A stretch of DNA of 64,000 bases from Nitrospirota bacterium (GTDB lineage Bacteria > Nitrospirota > Thermodesulfovibrionia > Thermodesulfovibrionales > Dissulfurispiraceae). The position numbers and the translations under genes are program-made. Under the pieces are notes generated by a model. It made no database searches. It was given only the letters and a program-made list of their open reading frames with translations, and was not told where the DNA came from. Positions 3,396 to 25,625 of this stretch are shown piece after piece. Within the stretch, counting starts at the first letter, position 1, and each line of letters begins with the position of its first letter. The stretch is taken from contig CAVPZX010000008.1 in NCBI GenBank assembly GCA_963710375.1, positions 265,138 through 329,137 on the forward strand, given 5' to 3'.

Positions 3396-4567
3396 CGTTT
3401 TCCCGCTGTCAGCTCGTTGATGATATCAATCATGCCGACTGTATCATTCTTTGTTTTATAGGCCCTTTTGAGGGACCGGGCAAGTGTAACGGGACTTTTT
3501 ATAAACATAACACCATCATTGTCAGGCATTGGGTCATTCATCGGATTATATATCCATGCACCCTTTCCATTCAGGGCCGAAAATTCAACCGGAGAGATAT
3601 AGGATGGAGATATTGCAACATCAGAAATCATGACAACGGGCACAATACTGTCTGGTCCAACCACATAAAATCTACCCTTGATTTTCTGCAGATATTTGAG
3701 AAAAACCCCCTCTATGATTTTATCTTCCGTAAATTCCCGTATAACAAAATTGCGCTTGACCAGGAATAACACGACCGGAATCCGGGTTTCTGTAATGACC
3801 CTGAAAATCTCCGTCAACTGGGGCCTGAACCTTGAATGGTTAAAAACCACTACGCCCAGCTCGGAACGGCTCACGGTTATCTGTGAATTATAGAGATGGT
3901 TTTTATAGACGTCTTCTATAGTAGATAAAGAATATATGTCTTTGATGTCCGTCAATACACTTATTTTTTCCGGAGCAATCCCTTTTTTAACATAAAATTG
4001 TTTTTCATATTCTTTTCTAACGATAATGGCATCCATTAGTCCGGCCATGAGCAGGCCGCTTTCGACTGCAGGGTAAACCTGGTATCCCGCCACCTTTATA
4101 CCTGCCTCTTTGGCGTCAAACAGCAAGGTGGTATAAAAGACATCGACGACATCAGAAATGGCTTCGTCATAATTCATTAACGGAAATAAAACCATATCAG
4201 CATCGATACCGCCAATTTCCGGGAAGGAGGATCCTGATAAATGCCCCCAGAAATCATCAAATGCAGTGGGCTTCCATAATTTCAGGTCTGTTCCCGGCAC
4301 AACCATATCATATGTATATTGAACAAAACCTTTTGCAAGGTCATCTCTAAAAGCATCGGTAACAGGCAGCGATTCCGCCTCGATGATCCTTGTAAGAATA
4401 TTGGAAGATGGACTGCCGAGTTTTTTATTTATGTCATCATATACCTCATTTGAAATAGTCAAAACCTCCACAATAAAATGCTTCGATAGTCCATTCAGCA
4501 AATGACAAATTCTCCCCGACGTCGCAAAATAATCGCGTTCGCTGACAGGAAAGAGCAGTTTCTTCAT
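3392..4567 (-). CDS. Hypothetical protein, possibly GT-B-like, in glycosylation locus
   Basis: 391-aa ORF with 4-bp overlaps to both neighbours; no motif recognised with confidence. Confidence 0.6.
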   Translation of the reverse strand: MKKLLFPVSERDYFATSGRICHLLNGLSKHFIVEVLTISNEVYDDINKKLGSPSSNILTRIIEAESLPVTDAFRDDLAKGFVQYTYDMVVPGTDLKLWKPTAFDDFWGHLSGSSFPEIGGIDADMVLFPLMNYDEAISDVVDVFYTTLLFDAKEAGIKVAGYQVYPAVESGLLMAGLMDAIIVRKEYEKQFYVKKGIAPEKISVLTDIKDIYSLSTIEDVYKNHLYNSQITVSRSELGVVVFNHSRFRPQLTEIFRVITETRIPVVLFLVKRNFVIREFTEDKIIEGVFLKYLQKIKGRFYVVGPDSIVPVVMISDVAISPSYISPVEFSALNGKGAWIYNPMNDPMPDNDGVMFIKSPVTLARSLKRAYKTKNDTVGMIDIINELTAGKR

Positions 4568-6690
4568 GAATTCTCCTCGTCGCTCCTGATGGCTGTTACC
4601 GACTGAAAAAATCGCTCAAGTTCTCTCACCGCATCAATGTTATCATAAAATATATTATTCCTTTCGAGTATCTTTATACTTATTTTCTCTCTCCAATCTG
4701 CATCGTTGGCCAGTCGCAACGCTAACTGAATGTATTGTTCGCTGTTATTGCTGATGAGATCCATGATATCCATTTTCTTATAGTAGGCGTATGTAAAACG
4801 GCTTGCCATCCTGCTTGAAGGCCATGTTACTATCGGACAGCCGACTGAAAATAACTCCAGGCTGGTTGTGCCGCCACAAAAATAAGGTGTATCCAATACA
4901 GCATCCGCACTTCTCAAAAGACTGAGAAAATCATCGATAGGAAGACGGGGCAAAAAAATTATCCTGTCCGAAACATCAGGCATTGATCGCAAGAACCGCT
5001 CCATAAGCAAGGTGCTCCAATGCTTGTTCGCATCATCAAATAAAATGAGCAGGCCCTTATTGTCGCGTCGTAAAATCTCACCTAAGACAGCATCAAAATC
5101 CGGGTGGAATTTGATTAAGCTTTGAGGCGCAACATATAATCTGCTGTCTGCCGGCAACCCCACCCTTCTCCTGATCTCCAGCGAGCCTGTTAATTCAACA
5201 ACAGCAGGTCGATAAAAATAATTTGGCACATTTTTCATTCTGACAAGACATTCCGAGTATTGAGTTTCAGAACCCTCCGGCTCGAAGTCTTCACAGGATA
5301 TAAAGTAATCCAAATTGGGTATCCCGGTTGTGTCAGGATGCCCCCATGTGACACACTGCACAGGAGCCAACCTGGAGAAAGCAAGGAAATAAGTAAAGGG
5401 GTCCATTCCGATATCAGTATAAAACAGGATATCCAGCTCACATTCGGCTATCTGCTCCCGAGCCGTTTCCAAAGCAGGAGCGAGCGACACTGATTTACCG
5501 GCATTTCGTTCTATGAATTGCGATATTTCATCGGATCTCTTTTTGCCAAAGAAAACATTGACATTAAAAAGCTCACGGGACAGGTTCGCAATGACCCCCC
5601 GGAAATGTTTACCCATAGTATGTTCGCAAAAATAGCTCGAAATAAAACCGATCTTTATTTTTCCTGTCCTCTCAATATTCCCTCCATTTTTGCAATGCGG
5701 CGCCGTATAAAGCAGCGAAGGGCAGGCATCTGCATAAAGCTTTGCTATCTTAATCTGCAATTCCCGATTGTTGAGCCCATGATATGCCAAAAAAAAGTTT
5801 GTTTGACCAATATCCTTAAGAGGATTATTCAGGACAACACCCGATTGTAGGAAGTCATCTATGGCATGGTCAAACTGCCGGCGAAAATGCAGAACACTTT
5901 CTTTGGACGGCATGATTATCGGCGGCAGTGCTGCCAATTTTATTTTCACGCCGGCACTGTGTGTTAACTCAAATACTTTTCGGTAATGGGCCTTAGCTTC
6001 CTCAATCTTGCCCTGGTCCGCAAGCGCATTACCCAGATTGTAATGCGCCTCATGAAAATCAGGTTTTGAGGACACAGCCCTGCGGAAAAAGGGTATTGCT
6101 TCATCTATCTTCCACTGCTCTGCAAGCGCATTGCCCAGATTGAAATTAGCCATGTGCGAATCGGGTTTTAGGGACACAGCCACGTAGTAACAGGCTGTCG
6201 CTTCTACCAGCTTACCTTGCTCTTTAAACGCATTGCCCAGATTGTATTGGGCCTCGAAAGAACGAGGGTCCAAAGACACGGCCCGGTGATAACAGGCTAT
6301 CGCTTCATCCAGTTTACCCTGCTCCGCAAGCACGGAGCCCAGATTATTGAGCGCCTCGAAATAATCCGGATTTAAAGATAATGCACGGCGGTAACAGGCA
6401 ATTGCTTCATCAGGTTTAATCAAAGCTCGATACACATTGCCGGCATTATTATGATACAAAGGAATCGCCTGATTTACATTTATCGCTTTTTCAATTAAAC
6501 CGATCGCAGTTTCGTTCTGCCCAAGTTGATTGGCAATAACGCCGAGTAAGTGTAATGCGTCAGCATTGTCGGGTTGAGTCTGCAATACTTGATGATAAAT
6601 AGCTTCTGCTTGTTGCAGCTCACCTTTCTGGTGGTGCTTTAACGCCAGTTGCAGTGCATCAGTAACAGCTAAGTGCTCCGGTTTGTTCAT
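4564..6690 (-). CDS. TPR-containing O-GlcNAc transferase-like protein (GT41/SPINDLY family)
   Basis: About 7 TPRs (ALNNLGSVLAEQGKLDEAIACY) followed by KIKIGFIS, LAPVQCVTWGHPDTTG and LDTPYFCGGTTSLE motifs. Confidence 0.9.
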   Translation of the reverse strand: MNKPEHLAVTDALQLALKHHQKGELQQAEAIYHQVLQTQPDNADALHLLGVIANQLGQNETAIGLIEKAINVNQAIPLYHNNAGNVYRALIKPDEAIACYRRALSLNPDYFEALNNLGSVLAEQGKLDEAIACYHRAVSLDPRSFEAQYNLGNAFKEQGKLVEATACYYVAVSLKPDSHMANFNLGNALAEQWKIDEAIPFFRRAVSSKPDFHEAHYNLGNALADQGKIEEAKAHYRKVFELTHSAGVKIKLAALPPIIMPSKESVLHFRRQFDHAIDDFLQSGVVLNNPLKDIGQTNFFLAYHGLNNRELQIKIAKLYADACPSLLYTAPHCKNGGNIERTGKIKIGFISSYFCEHTMGKHFRGVIANLSRELFNVNVFFGKKRSDEISQFIERNAGKSVSLAPALETAREQIAECELDILFYTDIGMDPFTYFLAFSRLAPVQCVTWGHPDTTGIPNLDYFISCEDFEPEGSETQYSECLVRMKNVPNYFYRPAVVELTGSLEIRRRVGLPADSRLYVAPQSLIKFHPDFDAVLGEILRRDNKGLLILFDDANKHWSTLLMERFLRSMPDVSDRIIFLPRLPIDDFLSLLRSADAVLDTPYFCGGTTSLELFSVGCPIVTWPSSRMASRFTYAYYKKMDIMDLISNNSEQYIQLALRLANDADWREKISIKILERNNIFYDNIDAVRELERFFQSVTAIRSDEENS

Positions 6691-21401: not shown

Positions 21402-21587
21402 ATTTCATATCATAGCAAATCCTCATTTTTTTGAGGAGAAAAAAGACGCAGTGAGAAGCTTTTAAGGCTGGTGTATCAAAAGGGTTCTCACAGTGGGCTT
21501 AACAATATGTGCTGCTGTCTTGGTTGCGTTATTTTCTTTCTCAATGATATTCTTTACTAAAAATTGCGTCAGAGCGGGTGATCTTGT

Positions 21588-24500
21588 ATGAAACCACTAA
21601 TGCCTCCGGGAGCAAGGCTTTTCGGACGTCATCCTGATCTTCTGCATTTATTGAATAGGGTCACTGGAAGTGGGCTGACCGTTGTCTCCGGACGCCCAAG
21701 GATCGGTAAGACCTGGCTGATCAGGACTCTCTGCGACAATCTCGCCTCCACAAAAAACTGTCTCATAGGATATTGTGCAACCACTAGCGAGTCTGATGTT
21801 ATGGGCCAATCCCTCTCAAATCTCTATTTCCGCTGGCTGGAGGATGCCACCTACCGGGAGCAGGCCCGAAGCCTGTACGAGAGGCACAAGGGAAAACTGA
21901 CCGAAAAGGTAGGAACTTTCATTGGCGGGCTTTTCTCAAAGGCAGTACCTATTGTAGGAGATGCCGTAGAAAAGGGGATGCTGGCGCTCAAAAGCCTATC
22001 CGAAGACATGCGGATTGGAGGTATGCAGTTTGCCACTGTTCCCTATGAGACTGTGCATGACCTTGTCACCTCCCTGAGCACGATCATGGAAGGTCGCCCC
22101 ATTCTCCTTGTCCTGGACGCCTGGGAGCAGGGACAAAACCCTAAAAGTGATTTCGGGACACTAAGAAAGTTCCTGAGCAACCTCTGGGACTGGCCGGATA
22201 ATTTTCACGTGATCGTCATCATCCGCGATGAACCTAAATATACGCCATATCGTGAATTGGCTGGGGAGCTGTGCATGTCCCCTGCCGCTGAACTATTCGA
22301 TCTGACTCCGATGCACCTCGATAACGATCCGGAAGAGGCTGACAGGGTTGTGAGATATATCCGTGAGCTAGCTCCTGGTGCGCAAAATATTGACGCCCGG
22401 GGGCTTCTGGAGATGGTGAACGAGAACCCGGCTGTTCTTGAGAACTGGGTAAATGCTGCGCCACAGACAGAGGCGGCGCTAAGAAATACCGCCGCCAATG
22501 CCCATAGCAATTCATATCCTGAACTGGAGGCGATACTGTTTGGATTGTTCAAGGAGAACAAGGACTATTTTACCGTTGCCGTCCGTCTGGCGGTTCTTTA
22601 TGAGTTTACTGCTGAATCTGGATGGGAGCCATTAGCTCCTATTGTTCTAAGCAATGCGCCTCAATATGGGCTTACTGAGCTGGAGAGCCAGGGCCTGTTG
22701 AAGGGACAGTCTCCACCGTCTTTTGGCCACACCACCCGGTATGAGGCAGCGCGGCGTTGTCTTTTTAATAATCAAAGCCTGAGGCCCTATGCCAGGGATA
22801 TTACATTTGACCTGATACGCATGATTTCCGGGCAGATAAGGCAGGTCATTGAAGACAATAGAGCCTTTGCATCGGCCTTGACAGTAATTCTTTCTCCGGC
22901 GGAAAAACTAGGGCTTACTGATTTTCAGTATTACCCCTGTGTCACGGCCCGCACATTGTTTGGATTGACCTTGAGCGAATCACACAAAAAACTCATACGA
23001 GAAAAAGCCATACTGACTGCCCAAAAAGTGCCGGAAACACGCACCCTTGTTGCCGTGGGGCTGTTCAACACTCTCAATGAAGCCAAAGAGGAGAATGATC
23101 TTCCGCGCAGGGACGCACTGCTTGATGAGCTCGACAGACTGCACACTGCCTATCCTGATGACAGCACTGTTAGAGAAAATCTCGCCAAGGGGCTTTACAA
23201 CACCCTCTTTGACGCCAAGGCGGAGAATGACTTTCCTCGCAGGAACACACTGCTTGATGAACTGAGACTACTGCAAGCTGCGTATCCTGATGACGCCGCT
23301 GTAAGGGAAAATCTCGCCACGGGGCTATACAAAACCCTCATTGACGCCAAGGCGGAGGATGACCTTCCGCACAGGGACGCACTGCTTGATGAGCTGAGAC
23401 AGCTGCACACTGCCTATCCTGACGACGCCGCTGTAAGGGAAAATCTCGCCACGGGGCTATACAAAACCCTCATTGACGCCAAGGCAGAGGATGACCTTCC
23501 TCGCAGGAACGCACTGCTTGACGAGCTGAGAGCTGCACACCGCCTATCCTGATGACACCGCTGTCAGTAAATACCTCGCCAAGGGGTTGTACAACACCCT
23601 CTTTGACGCCAAGGCGGAGAACGACTTTCCTCGCAGGAACACACTGCTTGATGAAATGAGACTACTGCACACTGCCTCTGATGATGCCGCTGTCAGGGAA
23701 AATCTCGCCAGGGAGCTATACAACGCCCTCATTGACGCCAAGGCAGAGGATGACCTTCCTCGCAGGAACGCACTGCTTGACGAGCTGAGACGGCTGCACA
23801 CCGCCTATCGTGATGACACCACTGTTAGAGAAAGACTCGCTAAGGGGCTTTACAACACCCTCAATGACGCCAAGGCAGAGGATGACCTTCCTCGCAGGAA
23901 CACTCTACTTGATGAGCTAAGACGGCTGCACTCAGCCTATCCTGATGACGCTGCTATCAGGGAAAATCTCGCCAGGGGGCTGTACAACACCCACATTGAC
24001 GCCAAGGCGGAGGACGACCTTCCTCACAGGAATATACTGCTTGACGAACTGAGACGGCTGCACACCGCCTATACTGATGACAGCACTGTTAGAGAAAATC
24101 TCGCCAAGGGGCTTTACAACACCCTCAACGATGCCAAGGCAGAGGATGACCTTCCTCGCAGGAACACACTGCTTGACGAGCTGAGGCGGCTGCACTCCGC
24201 CTATCCTGATGACGCCGCTGTCAAGGAATGCCTCGCCATGGGACTGTACAACACCCTCAATTACGCCAAGGCACAGGACGGCCTTCCTCGCAGGAACGCA
24301 CTGCTCGATGTGCTGAGGCAGACTGCACACCGCCTATCCTGATGACGCCGCTGTCAAGGAATGCCTCGCCATGGGACTGTACAACACCCTCAATTACGCC
24401 AAGACGGAGAACGACCTTCCTTGCAGGAATGCACTGCTTGATGAACTGAGACAGACTGCACACCGCCTATACTGATGACGCCGCTGTCAGAGAAAGACTC

Positions 24501-24911
24501 GCCAGGGGGCTGTACAACACCCTCAATTACGCCAAGGCGGAGGATGACCTTCCTCGCAGGAACGCACTGCTTTATGAGCTGAGGCAGCTGCACACCGCCT
24601 ATACTGATGACGCCGCTGTCAAGGAATGCCTCGCCAGGGGGCTGTACAACACCCTCGTTGACACCAAGGCGGAGGATGACCTTTTTCGCAGGAACGCACT
24701 GCTTGATGAGCTGAGACAGCTGCACACCGCTTATCCTGATGACGCCGCTGTCAAGGAATACCTCGCCAGGGGGCTGTACAACATCCTCGTTGACGCCAAG
24801 GCGGAGGATGACTTTCCTCGCAGGAACGCACTGCTTTATGAGCCGAGACGACTGCATGCCGCCTATCCTGATGACGACGCTGTCAGGGAATACCTCGCCA
24901 AGGCTGGTTAA
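21588..24911 (+). CDS. STAND-like P-loop ATPase with a C-terminal array of 44-aa helical repeats; interrupted by frameshifts (about 1107 aa if repaired)
   Basis: LFGR lead-in, Walker A GRPRIGKT, Walker B ILLVLDAWE, wHTH-like LTELESQGLL; the repeats continue past the 23552 stop in shifted frames to the TAA at 24909-24911. Confidence 0.75.
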
Positions 24912-24920
24912 CACCCTCTT
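23058..24920 (+). repeat. Coding tandem repeat: 14 full units of ~132 bp plus a partial 15th
   Basis: Unit starts counted at 23058, 23190, 23322, 23454, 23584, 23713, 23845, 23977, 24109, 24241, 24374, 24507, 24639, 24771; consensus GLYNTLxDAKAEDDLPRRNALLDELRxLHTAYPDDAAVRExLAx. Confidence 0.95.
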
Positions 24921-25053
24921 TGTCCTCGGACAGAAGACAACGGCAAGTGGATGAAAAAAAATATCAGGAGATTAAAAGGTTACAGGATGCCTCGGGGATA
25001 TTCTTTCATTTCCTTAGTGCGGCACTTCCTGCTATCAGCCGGGCGCTTGCTCT

Positions 25054-25431
25054 TTATTTCATCTTTAGTATTGCCCCGATCTTCTGACACAGGACCTCAG
25101 GTGTGAACGGCTTTACGATATAACCCGTTACTTTTTCACTGATGCACTCCTCCACGCTCCCTTTTGCCGTTGTCCCCGTCACCATGATAAACGGAAGTGT
25201 TGCAAGCGAAGGCGTGCTGCGCACCCATTTCAGAAGGTCAAGGCCGCTCAGTTCAGGCATTTCCCAATCGCAGAGCACAATATCAAAATGCTCGTTCTCG
25301 AGCTTCCTTTGTGCCTCCTTCCCGGTAGCGGCTTCGCGCACGATAATGCCAGGAAAGGCCTCGATAAGGCTGTCCTTGATAATGTCCCGCATCAGCACAG
25401 AGTCATCAGCAATAAGCAGCTTTGTCGTCAT
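25054..25431 (-). CDS. Single-domain response regulator (CheY-like)
   Basis: LLIADD, LCDWEMP, MVT, YIVKPF. Confidence 0.92.
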   Translation of the reverse strand: MTTKLLIADDSVLMRDIIKDSLIEAFPGIIVREAATGKEAQRKLENEHFDIVLCDWEMPELSGLDLLKWVRSTPSLATLPFIMVTGTTAKGSVEECISEKVTGYIVKPFTPEVLCQKIGAILKMK

Positions 25432-25625
25432 GTCCGTCTCTCCTCCTTCACGCTCTGGCGGTTGACCTATTGAATACTAAACACCCTCTAAGGAAATATT
25501 AGCATACTGATGTTGTTTTTACAGAAAAAATGCTGCTCTGCTAACTGTATAGCACGCGGGAACTAACGCTCGATCTAATATTGGAGGAAAAATGGATGAA
25601 ACAGTGGTGCATTTACGGGTGCTTG

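What the first reader, a model, noticed from the sequence alone, without database searches (positions are those of the whole stretch)
23058..24902. Repeat variation is concentrated on one helix face, suggesting a recognition code
Hand translation of all 14 units shows a largely constant scaffold with hot spots at unit residue 41 (N,N,N,Y,N,R,N,N,C,C,R,C,Y,Y), residue 44 (K,T,T,K,R,K,R,K,M,M,R,R,R,K; codon ANG with all four middle bases) and residues 7-8 (NE,FD,ID,ID,FD,ID,ND,ID,ND,NY,NY,NY,VD,VD), plus N/K at residue 4. Read across the unit junction, these are positions i, i+3, i+7, i+10 and i+11, which form one face of an alpha-helix. Several changes are multi-nucleotide and non-synonymous (AAT/TAC/TGC/AGA). 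Inference: diversifying selection on a ligand-binding groove, analogous to the variable residues of TALE, PPR or HET-e repeats.
Basis: partly seen in the sequence, partly recalled or inferred. Interest (0 to 1): 0.75.

Follow-up and report, generated by a model that had tools for sequence, protein, structure and literature searches.

The report
Variable-groove repeat sensor on effector-less ATPase
This soil bacterium carries a gene built like an immune receptor, an ATP switch followed by 14 near-identical helical repeats whose differences pile up at a few positions predicted to line a protein-binding groove; the design is known from fungal receptors, but this repeat family is unnamed and has no attached killing domain.

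Summary
There are 14 units of 132 nt, and the most variable residues are 41, 44 and 7. Position 8 is moderate; position 4 is not a hot spot but a conserved Asn. The array is the C-terminal sensor of one ~1,107-aa STAND (NLR-like) ATPase gene (21588-24911) in a Dissulfurispiraceae-like Nitrospirota genome. Its three frameshifts are assembly errors. The repeat folds as a TPR-like solenoid and belongs to a widespread family with no Pfam or NCBIfam model (846 representatives). The same positions (41, 44, 3, 7, 8) vary within homologous arrays, and units cluster by gene (concerted evolution). Positive selection is well supported at position 41 across seven homologous arrays (omega about 4). In this array alone the hot sites evolve 3-4x faster than the scaffold but not clearly above neutral. 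The best reading is a diversifying protein-binding groove, as in fungal HET-e/TPR NLRs, not a TALE/PPR base code. No diversity-generating retroelement was found. Ligand, defence role and effector are unshown. Repeat homologues with another NTPase carry SIR2, protease or DUF4062 domains; this clade has none, only an amphipathic insert in the ATPase. The scan noted the same design on other DNA.

The parts
21588..24911 (+). Whole gene: STAND (NLR-like) NTPase with 14 TPR-like 44-aa repeats, about 1,107 aa once the three assembly errors are allowed for; no N-terminal effector domain; ends two codons after unit 14
   Evidence: ORFs; read support; folds
21615..22307 (+). Nucleotide-binding domain (Walker A at 21690-21713, Walker B at 22104-22127, conserved His207 and Arg213)
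   Evidence: weak AAA_16 hit E=4e-6, below cut-off; motif conservation in 77 aligned proteins; model
21840..22049 (+). About 70-aa glycine-rich amphipathic helical insert between Walker A and Walker B; low model confidence; not transmembrane by hydropathy
   Evidence: pLDDT <50 at residues 118-144; median 75 aa, 11% Gly, 1 of 76 above KD 1.6
22308..23057 (+). Helical domain, winged-helix domain (conserved GH at residues 380-381) and helical arm leading to the repeats; boundaries approximate
   Evidence: model; structural matches to MalT, PH0952, NRC2, Apaf-1; conservation
23058..24902 (+). Array of 14 units of 132 nt (44 aa): helix A = unit positions 36-44 plus 1-11 of the next unit, helix B = 15-31; variable sites 41, 44, 7 (8; family also 3), conserved Asn at 4
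23527..23531 (+). Assembly error in unit 4 (two bases missing in the window)
   Evidence: contigs of 4 of 4 runs and X5
24322..24322 (+). Assembly error in unit 10 (one extra base in the window)
24455..24455 (+). Assembly error in unit 11 (one extra base in the window)
21433..25622 (.). Segment (STAND gene plus a stand-alone response regulator) missing at the syntenic place in two congeners

Best explanation
The array is the C-terminal sensor of a STAND/NLR-like ATPase, and its near-identical repeats vary most at positions predicted to line a groove that likely binds a foreign protein, probably for anti-phage or anti-invader defence. Shown: the STAND architecture, homogenisation of units within each gene, recurrence of the same variable positions across the family, and excess amino-acid change at position 41 in homologues. 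Predicted: each 44-aa unit is a two-helix TPR-like hairpin; helix A, longer than in canonical TPR, lines the concave face, with a conserved Asn (4) ladder gripping a peptide backbone and positions 41/44/3/7/8 forming side-chain pockets. Inferred from known STANDs: the resting protein is an ADP-bound, sensor-inhibited monomer; ligand binding opens it for ATP-driven oligomerisation. Inferred: unequal recombination or gene conversion between units keeps the scaffold uniform and reshuffles pocket combinations, while selection keeps pocket residues diverse. The output is unknown: this clade has no fused effector, so it would act through the amphipathic insert in the ATPase or through a partner encoded elsewhere.
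For: STAND fold: MalT Z 17.0 (rmsd 4.8, 341 aligned), PH0952 STAND-TPR Z 14.6, NRC2 14.4, Apaf-1 14.3; Foldseek top hits 6MFV, MalT, Avs5, Avs3. Repeat model pLDDT 95.7, TPR-like. In 27 homologues with >=70% internal identity the most variable positions are 41 (top four in 21 of 27), 7, 3, 8, 44, then 40; window and family variability correlate (rho 0.50, p=0.0008). Codon model over 7 homologous arrays with sites chosen from the window: omega 1.66 vs 0.29, p=0.0012; site 41 omega about 4, LRT 31. Tree-free allele counts: 1.75x synonymous, p=1.6e-4; site 41 3.55x, p=2e-6 when each amino acid counts once; exposed helix-B control 1.24x. Units cluster by gene (window 14 of 14, support 0.997). Patchy distribution: 0 of 67 family relatives, 1 of 400 phylum genomes. 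The same repeat is fused to a second NTPase type carrying SIR2, trypsin-like or DUF4062 domains. TPR positions 2, 5, 6, 9, 12, 13 contact ligand (PMC1261162, passages), and by my register 40/41/44/3/4 correspond to TPR 5/6/9/12/13.
Against: In this array alone omega at the hot sites is not significantly above 1: 1.24 (p=0.22), 1.62 (p=0.052), 1.15 (p=0.31) by site set; allele counts give 1.2-1.3x, p about 0.3. Sites 7, 8, 3 fit omega about 1 and 44 about 1.6 (not significant) in the codon model; only 1 of 7 homologous arrays is significant on its own. No PADLOC or NCBIfam defence model matches the window protein convincingly. No defence-like neighbours were recognised in the flanking genes and no conserved neighbour among 9 loci read by eye. 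Only 3 of 40 scanned homologues have a recognised effector. No unit reshuffling was seen among contigs of four runs. The concave location is inferred by register, not measured on model coordinates.
Confidence: 0.68

Rival explanations
1. The hot spots are just exposed, unconstrained helix positions drifting neutrally in an array homogenised by gene conversion; there is no diversifying selection on a binding groove.
For: Window omega at hot sites is compatible with 1; sites 3, 7, 8 fit omega about 1 in homologues; helix B also has periodic variability; recombination and multi-base changes can inflate codon-model omega.
Against: Site 41 exceeds the synonymous rate in a tree-free test counting each amino acid once (3.55x, p=2e-6), while exposed helix-B sites give 1.24x; helix-A face variability is about twice that of helix B's exposed sites in 27 arrays.
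Confidence: 0.13
2. It is a non-defence STAND switch like MalT or PH0952, whose repeats bind a host protein or metabolite signal and regulate a cellular process.
For: Best structural matches are MalT and PH0952; no effector domain and no defence island; defence and non-defence STAND clades are interspersed (PMC13581612, section 5).
Against: No DNA-binding or catalytic output domain was found; the gene is missing from all 67 family relatives searched; a sensor for a constant host signal should not diversify; sister architectures carry SIR2 or protease domains.
Confidence: 0.13
3. The repeats read nucleic acid with a one-repeat-one-base code, as TALE or PPR proteins do.
For: Designed PPR structures are among the tied structural matches (Z 13-14.4); a few distant homologues hit PPR profiles; position 44 is often K/R.
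Against: Units have net charge 0 to -5, family mean -1.8; hot sites take 11-17 residue types, 28-86% hydrophobic, not a small polar alphabet; peptide-binding TPRs (NprR, KLC1, LGN) score equally or higher.
Confidence: 0.04
4. A diversity-generating retroelement mutates adenines in these codons (AAT, AAG, GAC).
For: Variants at 7, 41 and 44 mostly change adenine positions; such retroelements target putative sensors in multicellular bacteria (PMC10907252, search listing only).
Against: No RVT_1 match in this 98.8% complete genome; no separate template copy of the repeat; no variant letters among contigs of four runs.
Confidence: 0.02

Closest known systems
Fungal NLRs with highly internally conserved TPR/WD40/ANK repeats (Podospora HET-E/NWD, Pa_2_10340; PMC4986451)
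   Same: STAND NTPase plus near-identical repeats, concerted evolution, a few positively selected positions on the predicted concave face (passages read).
   Different: Bacterial; 44-aa repeat without a Pfam model; NTPase is not NACHT or NB-ARC by Pfam; no N-terminal effector; window units average 84% nucleotide identity, around or below that paper's 85% amino-acid threshold.
Bacterial NLR-like NB-ARC/TPR and NACHT/WD proteins with conserved repeats (bioRxiv 10.1101/2020.01.06.895854)
   Same: That paper notes bacterial NLR repeats of 80-90% identity and suggests, without a test in the passages read, the same diversifying regime.
   Different: Described as typical of multicellular lineages and rare in Proteobacteria; this family is found in Nitrospirota and Alphaproteobacteria records; no Bell/amyloid partner gene was recognised next to it.
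Avs/AVAST anti-phage STANDs (PMC13581612; Avs3, Avs5 structures)
   Same: STAND core with TPR-like helical sensor; patchy distribution; repeat homologues carry SIR2 or protease effectors.
   Different: Avs proteins have N-terminal effectors and recognise conserved phage folds through broad interfaces; near-identical, reshuffling units are not described in the sections read; no Avs model matches the window protein.
MalT and PH0952 (STAND with TPR sensor; PMC6468293)
   Same: Best structural matches for the NTPase, arm and sensor arrangement.
   Different: No output domain found here; sensor is a homogenised, variable array; 10-16% sequence identity.
Canonical 34-aa TPR and 42-aa KLC-like TPR (KLC1, LGN, Podospora 4Y6W)
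   Same: Two-helix solenoid; variable residues at positions equivalent to TPR 5, 6, 9, 12.
   Different: 44-aa unit with longer helices and an extra turn of variable residues (7, 8); conserved Asn falls at the equivalent of TPR 13 rather than 6; TPR Pfam scores below cut-off; best TM-score 0.63, rmsd about 5.

Membership tests
STAND NTPases | P-loop domain with intact Walker A/B followed by helical and winged-helix domains | tested here: met
   G40/K41 invariant, Walker B D177, R213, GH380-381 conserved in 77 proteins; structural match to MalT, PH0952, NRC2, Apaf-1. The window has E where 89% of homologues have G in the GxP motif.
STAND NTPases | C-terminal superstructure-forming sensor repeats | tested here: met
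STAND NTPases | Inducer-dependent ADP/ATP switch and oligomerisation | not testable with these tools
   inferred from PMC6468293 (abstract read)
Avs/AVAST and other tripartite NLR-like defence proteins | N-terminal effector domain | tested here: not met
   NTPase begins at about residue 10; none of 90 proteins matching this NTPase has an N-terminal extension over about 40 aa
Avs/AVAST and other tripartite NLR-like defence proteins | Match to a curated Avs or other defence profile | tested here: not met
   PADLOC: only a weak mad8 ATPase hit, E=7e-5; NCBIfam: none
Avs/AVAST and other tripartite NLR-like defence proteins | Phage-protein-triggered defence | not testable with these tools
   needs plaque and co-expression assays
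NLRs with highly conserved repeats (HET-E type regime) | High internal repeat identity with concerted evolution | tested here: met
   within-array nucleotide identity 0.84 vs 0.62 between arrays; units monophyletic by gene in 6 of 8 arrays, all but one or two units in the other two
NLRs with highly conserved repeats (HET-E type regime) | Positive selection at a few positions per repeat | tested here: inconclusive
   met for the family (site 41); not significant for this array's site sets; site 41 in the window LRT 7.2 by codon model but p=0.39 by allele count
NLRs with highly conserved repeats (HET-E type regime) | Repeat-number or order polymorphism among strains | tested here: inconclusive
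   near-identical homologues differ by whole units but all shorter forms are clean deletions, as assembly collapse would give; a related strain differs more in repeats than in the NTPase
NLRs with highly conserved repeats (HET-E type regime) | Variable sites on the concave ligand face | tested here: inconclusive
Canonical TPR (Pfam TPR families) | 34-aa unit scoring above the family cut-off | tested here: not met
   44-aa unit; TPR_14 23.2 bits vs cut-off 23.5; fold is TPR-like
TALE / PPR nucleic-acid-reading repeats | 33-35-aa unit with a small polar code alphabet on a nucleic-acid-binding groove | tested here: not met
   44-aa unit, no TALE or PPR Pfam hit for the window repeats, acidic units and broad hydrophobic alphabet
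Diversity-generating retroelement target | Reverse transcriptase and template repeat in the genome | tested here: not met
   genome 98.8% complete in 9 contigs

The most novel reading that the evidence does not exclude
An unnamed family of self-contained bacterial immune receptors in unicellular soil lineages: a recombination-programmed solenoid in which each 44-aa unit contributes one interchangeable pocket (41/44/3/7/8) along an Asn ladder, reading an extended foreign peptide residue by residue, and whose effector is an amphipathic helical hairpin built into the ATPase domain that attacks the membrane on oligomerisation. It would be a natural modular peptide-recognition code and a new NLR output mechanism.
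Probability: 0.12. Interest if true: 0.8.

Novelty: new variant of a known kind. Interest (0 to 1): 0.42.

Why it matters
It gives quantitative support that the fungal HET-e-type regime (homogenised repeats with a few positively selected groove residues) also operates in bacteria outside the multicellular lineages, an idea proposed but not tested in the passages I read. The family is compact, well modelled and has natural allele series, so the ligand can be sought with existing phage-gene co-expression libraries. The unit would be a scaffold for modular peptide binders if a per-repeat code exists. The missing effector in about 90 homologues is an open question. The general design is already known, which caps the surprise.

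Tried and rejected
DGR origin: no RVT_1 match and no template copy. Programmed frameshifting or pseudogene: the three shifts are absent from short-read contigs. Conserved partner gene: none seen by eye in 9 loci; the adjacent response regulator sits elsewhere in congener G041. Transmembrane effector in the insert: 1 of 76 above the hydropathy threshold. Viral copies: none found with a single-protein query. No RNA holder was listed, which says nothing about expression. Distance decay of four-gamete incompatibility among window units was not significant (133 of 253 pairs incompatible, p=0.18), so recombination is suggested by monophyly and shared tracts (84, 74, 62 nt), not proven by that test. 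A search for longer fused forms of the NTPase returned nothing but also missed known 894-936-aa relatives, so it is uninformative. The metagenome scan gave only 2 loci. ESM Atlas gave no result. PDB sequence search gave only weak archaeal ATPase hits (2FNA E=0.004). Literature searches found no paper on this 44-aa family; motif and taxon terms were absent from 7 readable supplements of PMC13581612, but its three largest files could not be read, so the clade may be catalogued there. No complex prediction was run because no candidate ligand exists.

Full report
OBSERVATION. The window holds 14.0 tandem copies of a 132-nt unit at 23057-24903. Entropy is highest at 41, 44 and 7 (1.84-1.88 bits), then 36 and 27; position 8 is moderate (1.09) and position 4 low (0.59).

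FRAMESHIFTS. As assembled, the array is split over three frames. Short-read contigs restore the frame at 23527, 24322 and 24455 in 4 of 4 runs from two studies and in a fifth run; one of these runs may be the source sample. All three errors, and a likely substitution at 24844, lie at or next to the same four-base motif, which suggests a systematic long-read error (inference). The 3-nt deletion in unit 5 and the stop two codons after unit 14 are bridged without gaps. The gene is therefore 21588-24911, about 1,107 aa. Another assembly of this organism reads unit 1 positions 26-27 differently (P0159), so a few scaffold differences may be errors; the contig pieces shown (32 of 132) cover most hot-spot codons of units 4-14 with 0-1 differences.

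WHAT THE GENE IS. The host is Nitrospirota, near Dissulfurispiraceae (PurN 90% identical to a record so named). The N-terminal 490 aa hit AAA_16 weakly. The AlphaFold model (pLDDT 91) matches MalT (Z 17.0), the archaeal STAND-TPR protein PH0952 (14.6), NRC2 and Apaf-1; Foldseek ranks PH0952, MalT, Avs5 and Avs3 first. Walker A and B, a sensor Arg and the winged-helix GH motif are conserved in 77 aligned proteins. There is no N-terminal effector. A glycine-rich amphipathic insert of about 70 aa lies between the Walker motifs; it is poorly predicted, present in 76 of 77 aligned proteins and not transmembrane.

THE REPEAT. The model of units 6-10 (pLDDT 95.7) is a two-helix solenoid: helix A covers positions 36-44 plus 1-11, helix B 15-31. 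Structural neighbours are TPR-like and tied (NprR, BtubC, LGN, KLC1, designed PPRs; Z 13-15, rmsd 4-7), so the fold alone does not name the ligand. On a helical wheel 37, 40, 41, 44, 3, 4, 7 and 8 fall on one side and the conserved L42, A43, L2, L6, A9 on the other. Aligning the helix-B proline and the LA pair to the canonical TPR (consensus recalled, not from a call) makes 40/41/44/3/4 equal TPR 5/6/9/12/13, which are the concave, ligand-contacting positions (PMC1261162, passages); 7 and 8 are one extra turn. I could not measure this on coordinates.

FAMILY. The repeat has 846 representatives at E<=0.001 among 1.84 billion; I examined the best 150 plus 5 others. No Pfam or NCBIfam family covers it. 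In 27 proteins with at least 4 full units and >=70% internal identity, within-protein variability is 41 (0.72), 7 (0.61), 3 (0.60), 8 (0.60), 44 (0.57), 40 (0.35), all others <=0.31; position 4 is Asn in 76% of 804 units (positions 33-34 lie at the profile edges and are poorly sampled). Ninety of 155 proteins share this NTPase, and none has an N-terminal extension over about 40 aa. Others join the same repeat to a different NTPase (nSTAND_NTPase5 hits in 9 of 40 scanned, 3 above cut-off) preceded by SIR2 (P0009), DUF4062 (P0021), trypsin-like (P0128; L007 by eye) or unnamed helical domains; the 40 were picked for length. Conversely, G358 joins this NTPase to ordinary short TPRs. The repeat is thus an exchangeable sensor module.

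EVOLUTION. Units cluster by gene in a tree of 8 arrays (window 14 of 14, support 0.997), the sign of concerted evolution. I used a codon model of my own with a shared synonymous rate. In the window, omega is 0.40 for the scaffold and 1.15-1.62 for the hot sets, none significantly above 1. For 7 homologous arrays (units with more than 6 gaps or a stop dropped, arrays under 5 units left out), with sites fixed beforehand from the window, joint omega is 1.66 vs 0.29, p=0.0012; site 41 gives omega about 4 (LRT 31; 7.2 in the window), site 44 1.6 (not significant), sites 3, 7, 8 about 1. Because recombination and multi-base changes inflate such tests, I also counted distinct alleles without a tree: 1.75x the synonymous rate in homologues (p=1.6e-4) and 1.26x in the window (p=0.29). 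Counting each amino acid once, site 41 gives 3.55x (p=2e-6), 44 2.07x, 7 1.93x, exposed helix-B sites 1.24x, scaffold 0.71x; this variant undercounts synonymous changes. Several of these arrays come from assemblies with their own frameshifts. Verdict: diversifying selection is well supported at 41, suggestive at 44 and 7, and not shown for this array alone.

STRAIN VARIATION AND DISTRIBUTION. Four runs of the same organism show no alternative letters or joints. Runs X7 and X8 hold a related strain: listed pieces differ by about 3.3% in the NTPase and about 7% in the repeats at best-fit placement (my sums over the 27 of 76 pieces shown), and one contig joins unit 1 to a unit-13-like sequence. 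Near-identical homologues differ by whole units (936/892/848 aa; 846/686/646/606 aa), but always as clean deletions, which assembly collapse could produce. The repeat was not found in 67 genomes of the family, including 9 congeners; the gene matched 1 of 400 phylum genomes. Two congeners lack 21433-25622 at the syntenic site. No reverse transcriptase or template repeat was found.

MECHANISM. Most likely the protein rests as an auto-inhibited monomer, binds a foreign polypeptide along the groove (Asn ladder for backbone, variable pockets for side chains), and oligomerises on ATP, as described for STANDs with TPR sensors (PMC6468293, abstract) and Avs proteins (PMC13581612, abstract and sections 5 and 13). 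These steps are inferred. Acidic units and a broad, partly hydrophobic alphabet argue against a base-reading code. The output is unresolved: the insert, an unlinked partner, or a non-defence role all remain open.

COMPARISON AND VERDICT. It works like fungal HET-e/TPR NLR sensors (PMC4986451, passages). Conserved repeats in bacterial NLRs have been noted (bioRxiv 2020.01.06.895854, passages). It fails membership of Avs (no effector, no profile match), canonical TPR, TALE/PPR and DGR targets. I found no paper on this family in the searches listed under Tried and rejected, with the caveat on unreadable supplements. Earlier notes of this scan describe the same design in other genomes; they are unchecked and were not used as support. 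Verdict: real feature, new variant of a known kind, interest 0.42.

Noticed in passing
window 23527, 24322, 24455, 24844; P0001, P0156, P0157, P0159, P0160: Indel and substitution errors cluster at one four-base motif in this assembly and in other assemblies of the same organism, suggesting an unmodelled DNA methylation at that motif; other broken genes in this genome may be artefacts.
   Followed up: partly
window 24903-24962: After the stop, a degenerate fifteenth unit continues in another frame; the shift is supported by short-read contigs, so the protein naturally lacks a C-terminal capping helix.
   Followed up: partly
window 21840-22049: Conserved glycine-rich amphipathic insert inside the NTPase domain of the effector-less clade; in the related strain (X7/X8) a 9-nt deletion falls near its end (about 22015-22029).
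   Followed up: partly
P0007, P0017, P0030, P0032, P0043, P0044, P0068, P0089, P0138 N-termini: An unnamed ~250-300-aa helical N-terminal domain starting with a hydrophobic Gly/Ala-rich stretch precedes the second NTPase type; candidate membrane-targeting effector.
   Followed up: no
L018 (G358:C39): Same NTPase clade fused to ordinary short TPRs instead of the 44-aa repeat, showing sensor exchange.
   Followed up: partly
P0009, P0024 and others: Family variants with 40-, 42- or 43-aa units keep high internal identity and the same variable positions.
   Followed up: partly
window 25054-25431: Stand-alone response regulator next to the gene; 93% identical copy lies in a different neighbourhood in congener G041.
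   Followed up: yes
G000:C2:86672-87238 and G000:C7:86900-87418: Two other large AAA_16 proteins (open frames of 2,300 and 1,414 aa) in this genome; not examined.
   Followed up: no
window 5996-6345: 3.4 copies of a 102-nt unit inside an ordinary TPR protein gene (4564-6690, minus strand).
   Followed up: no
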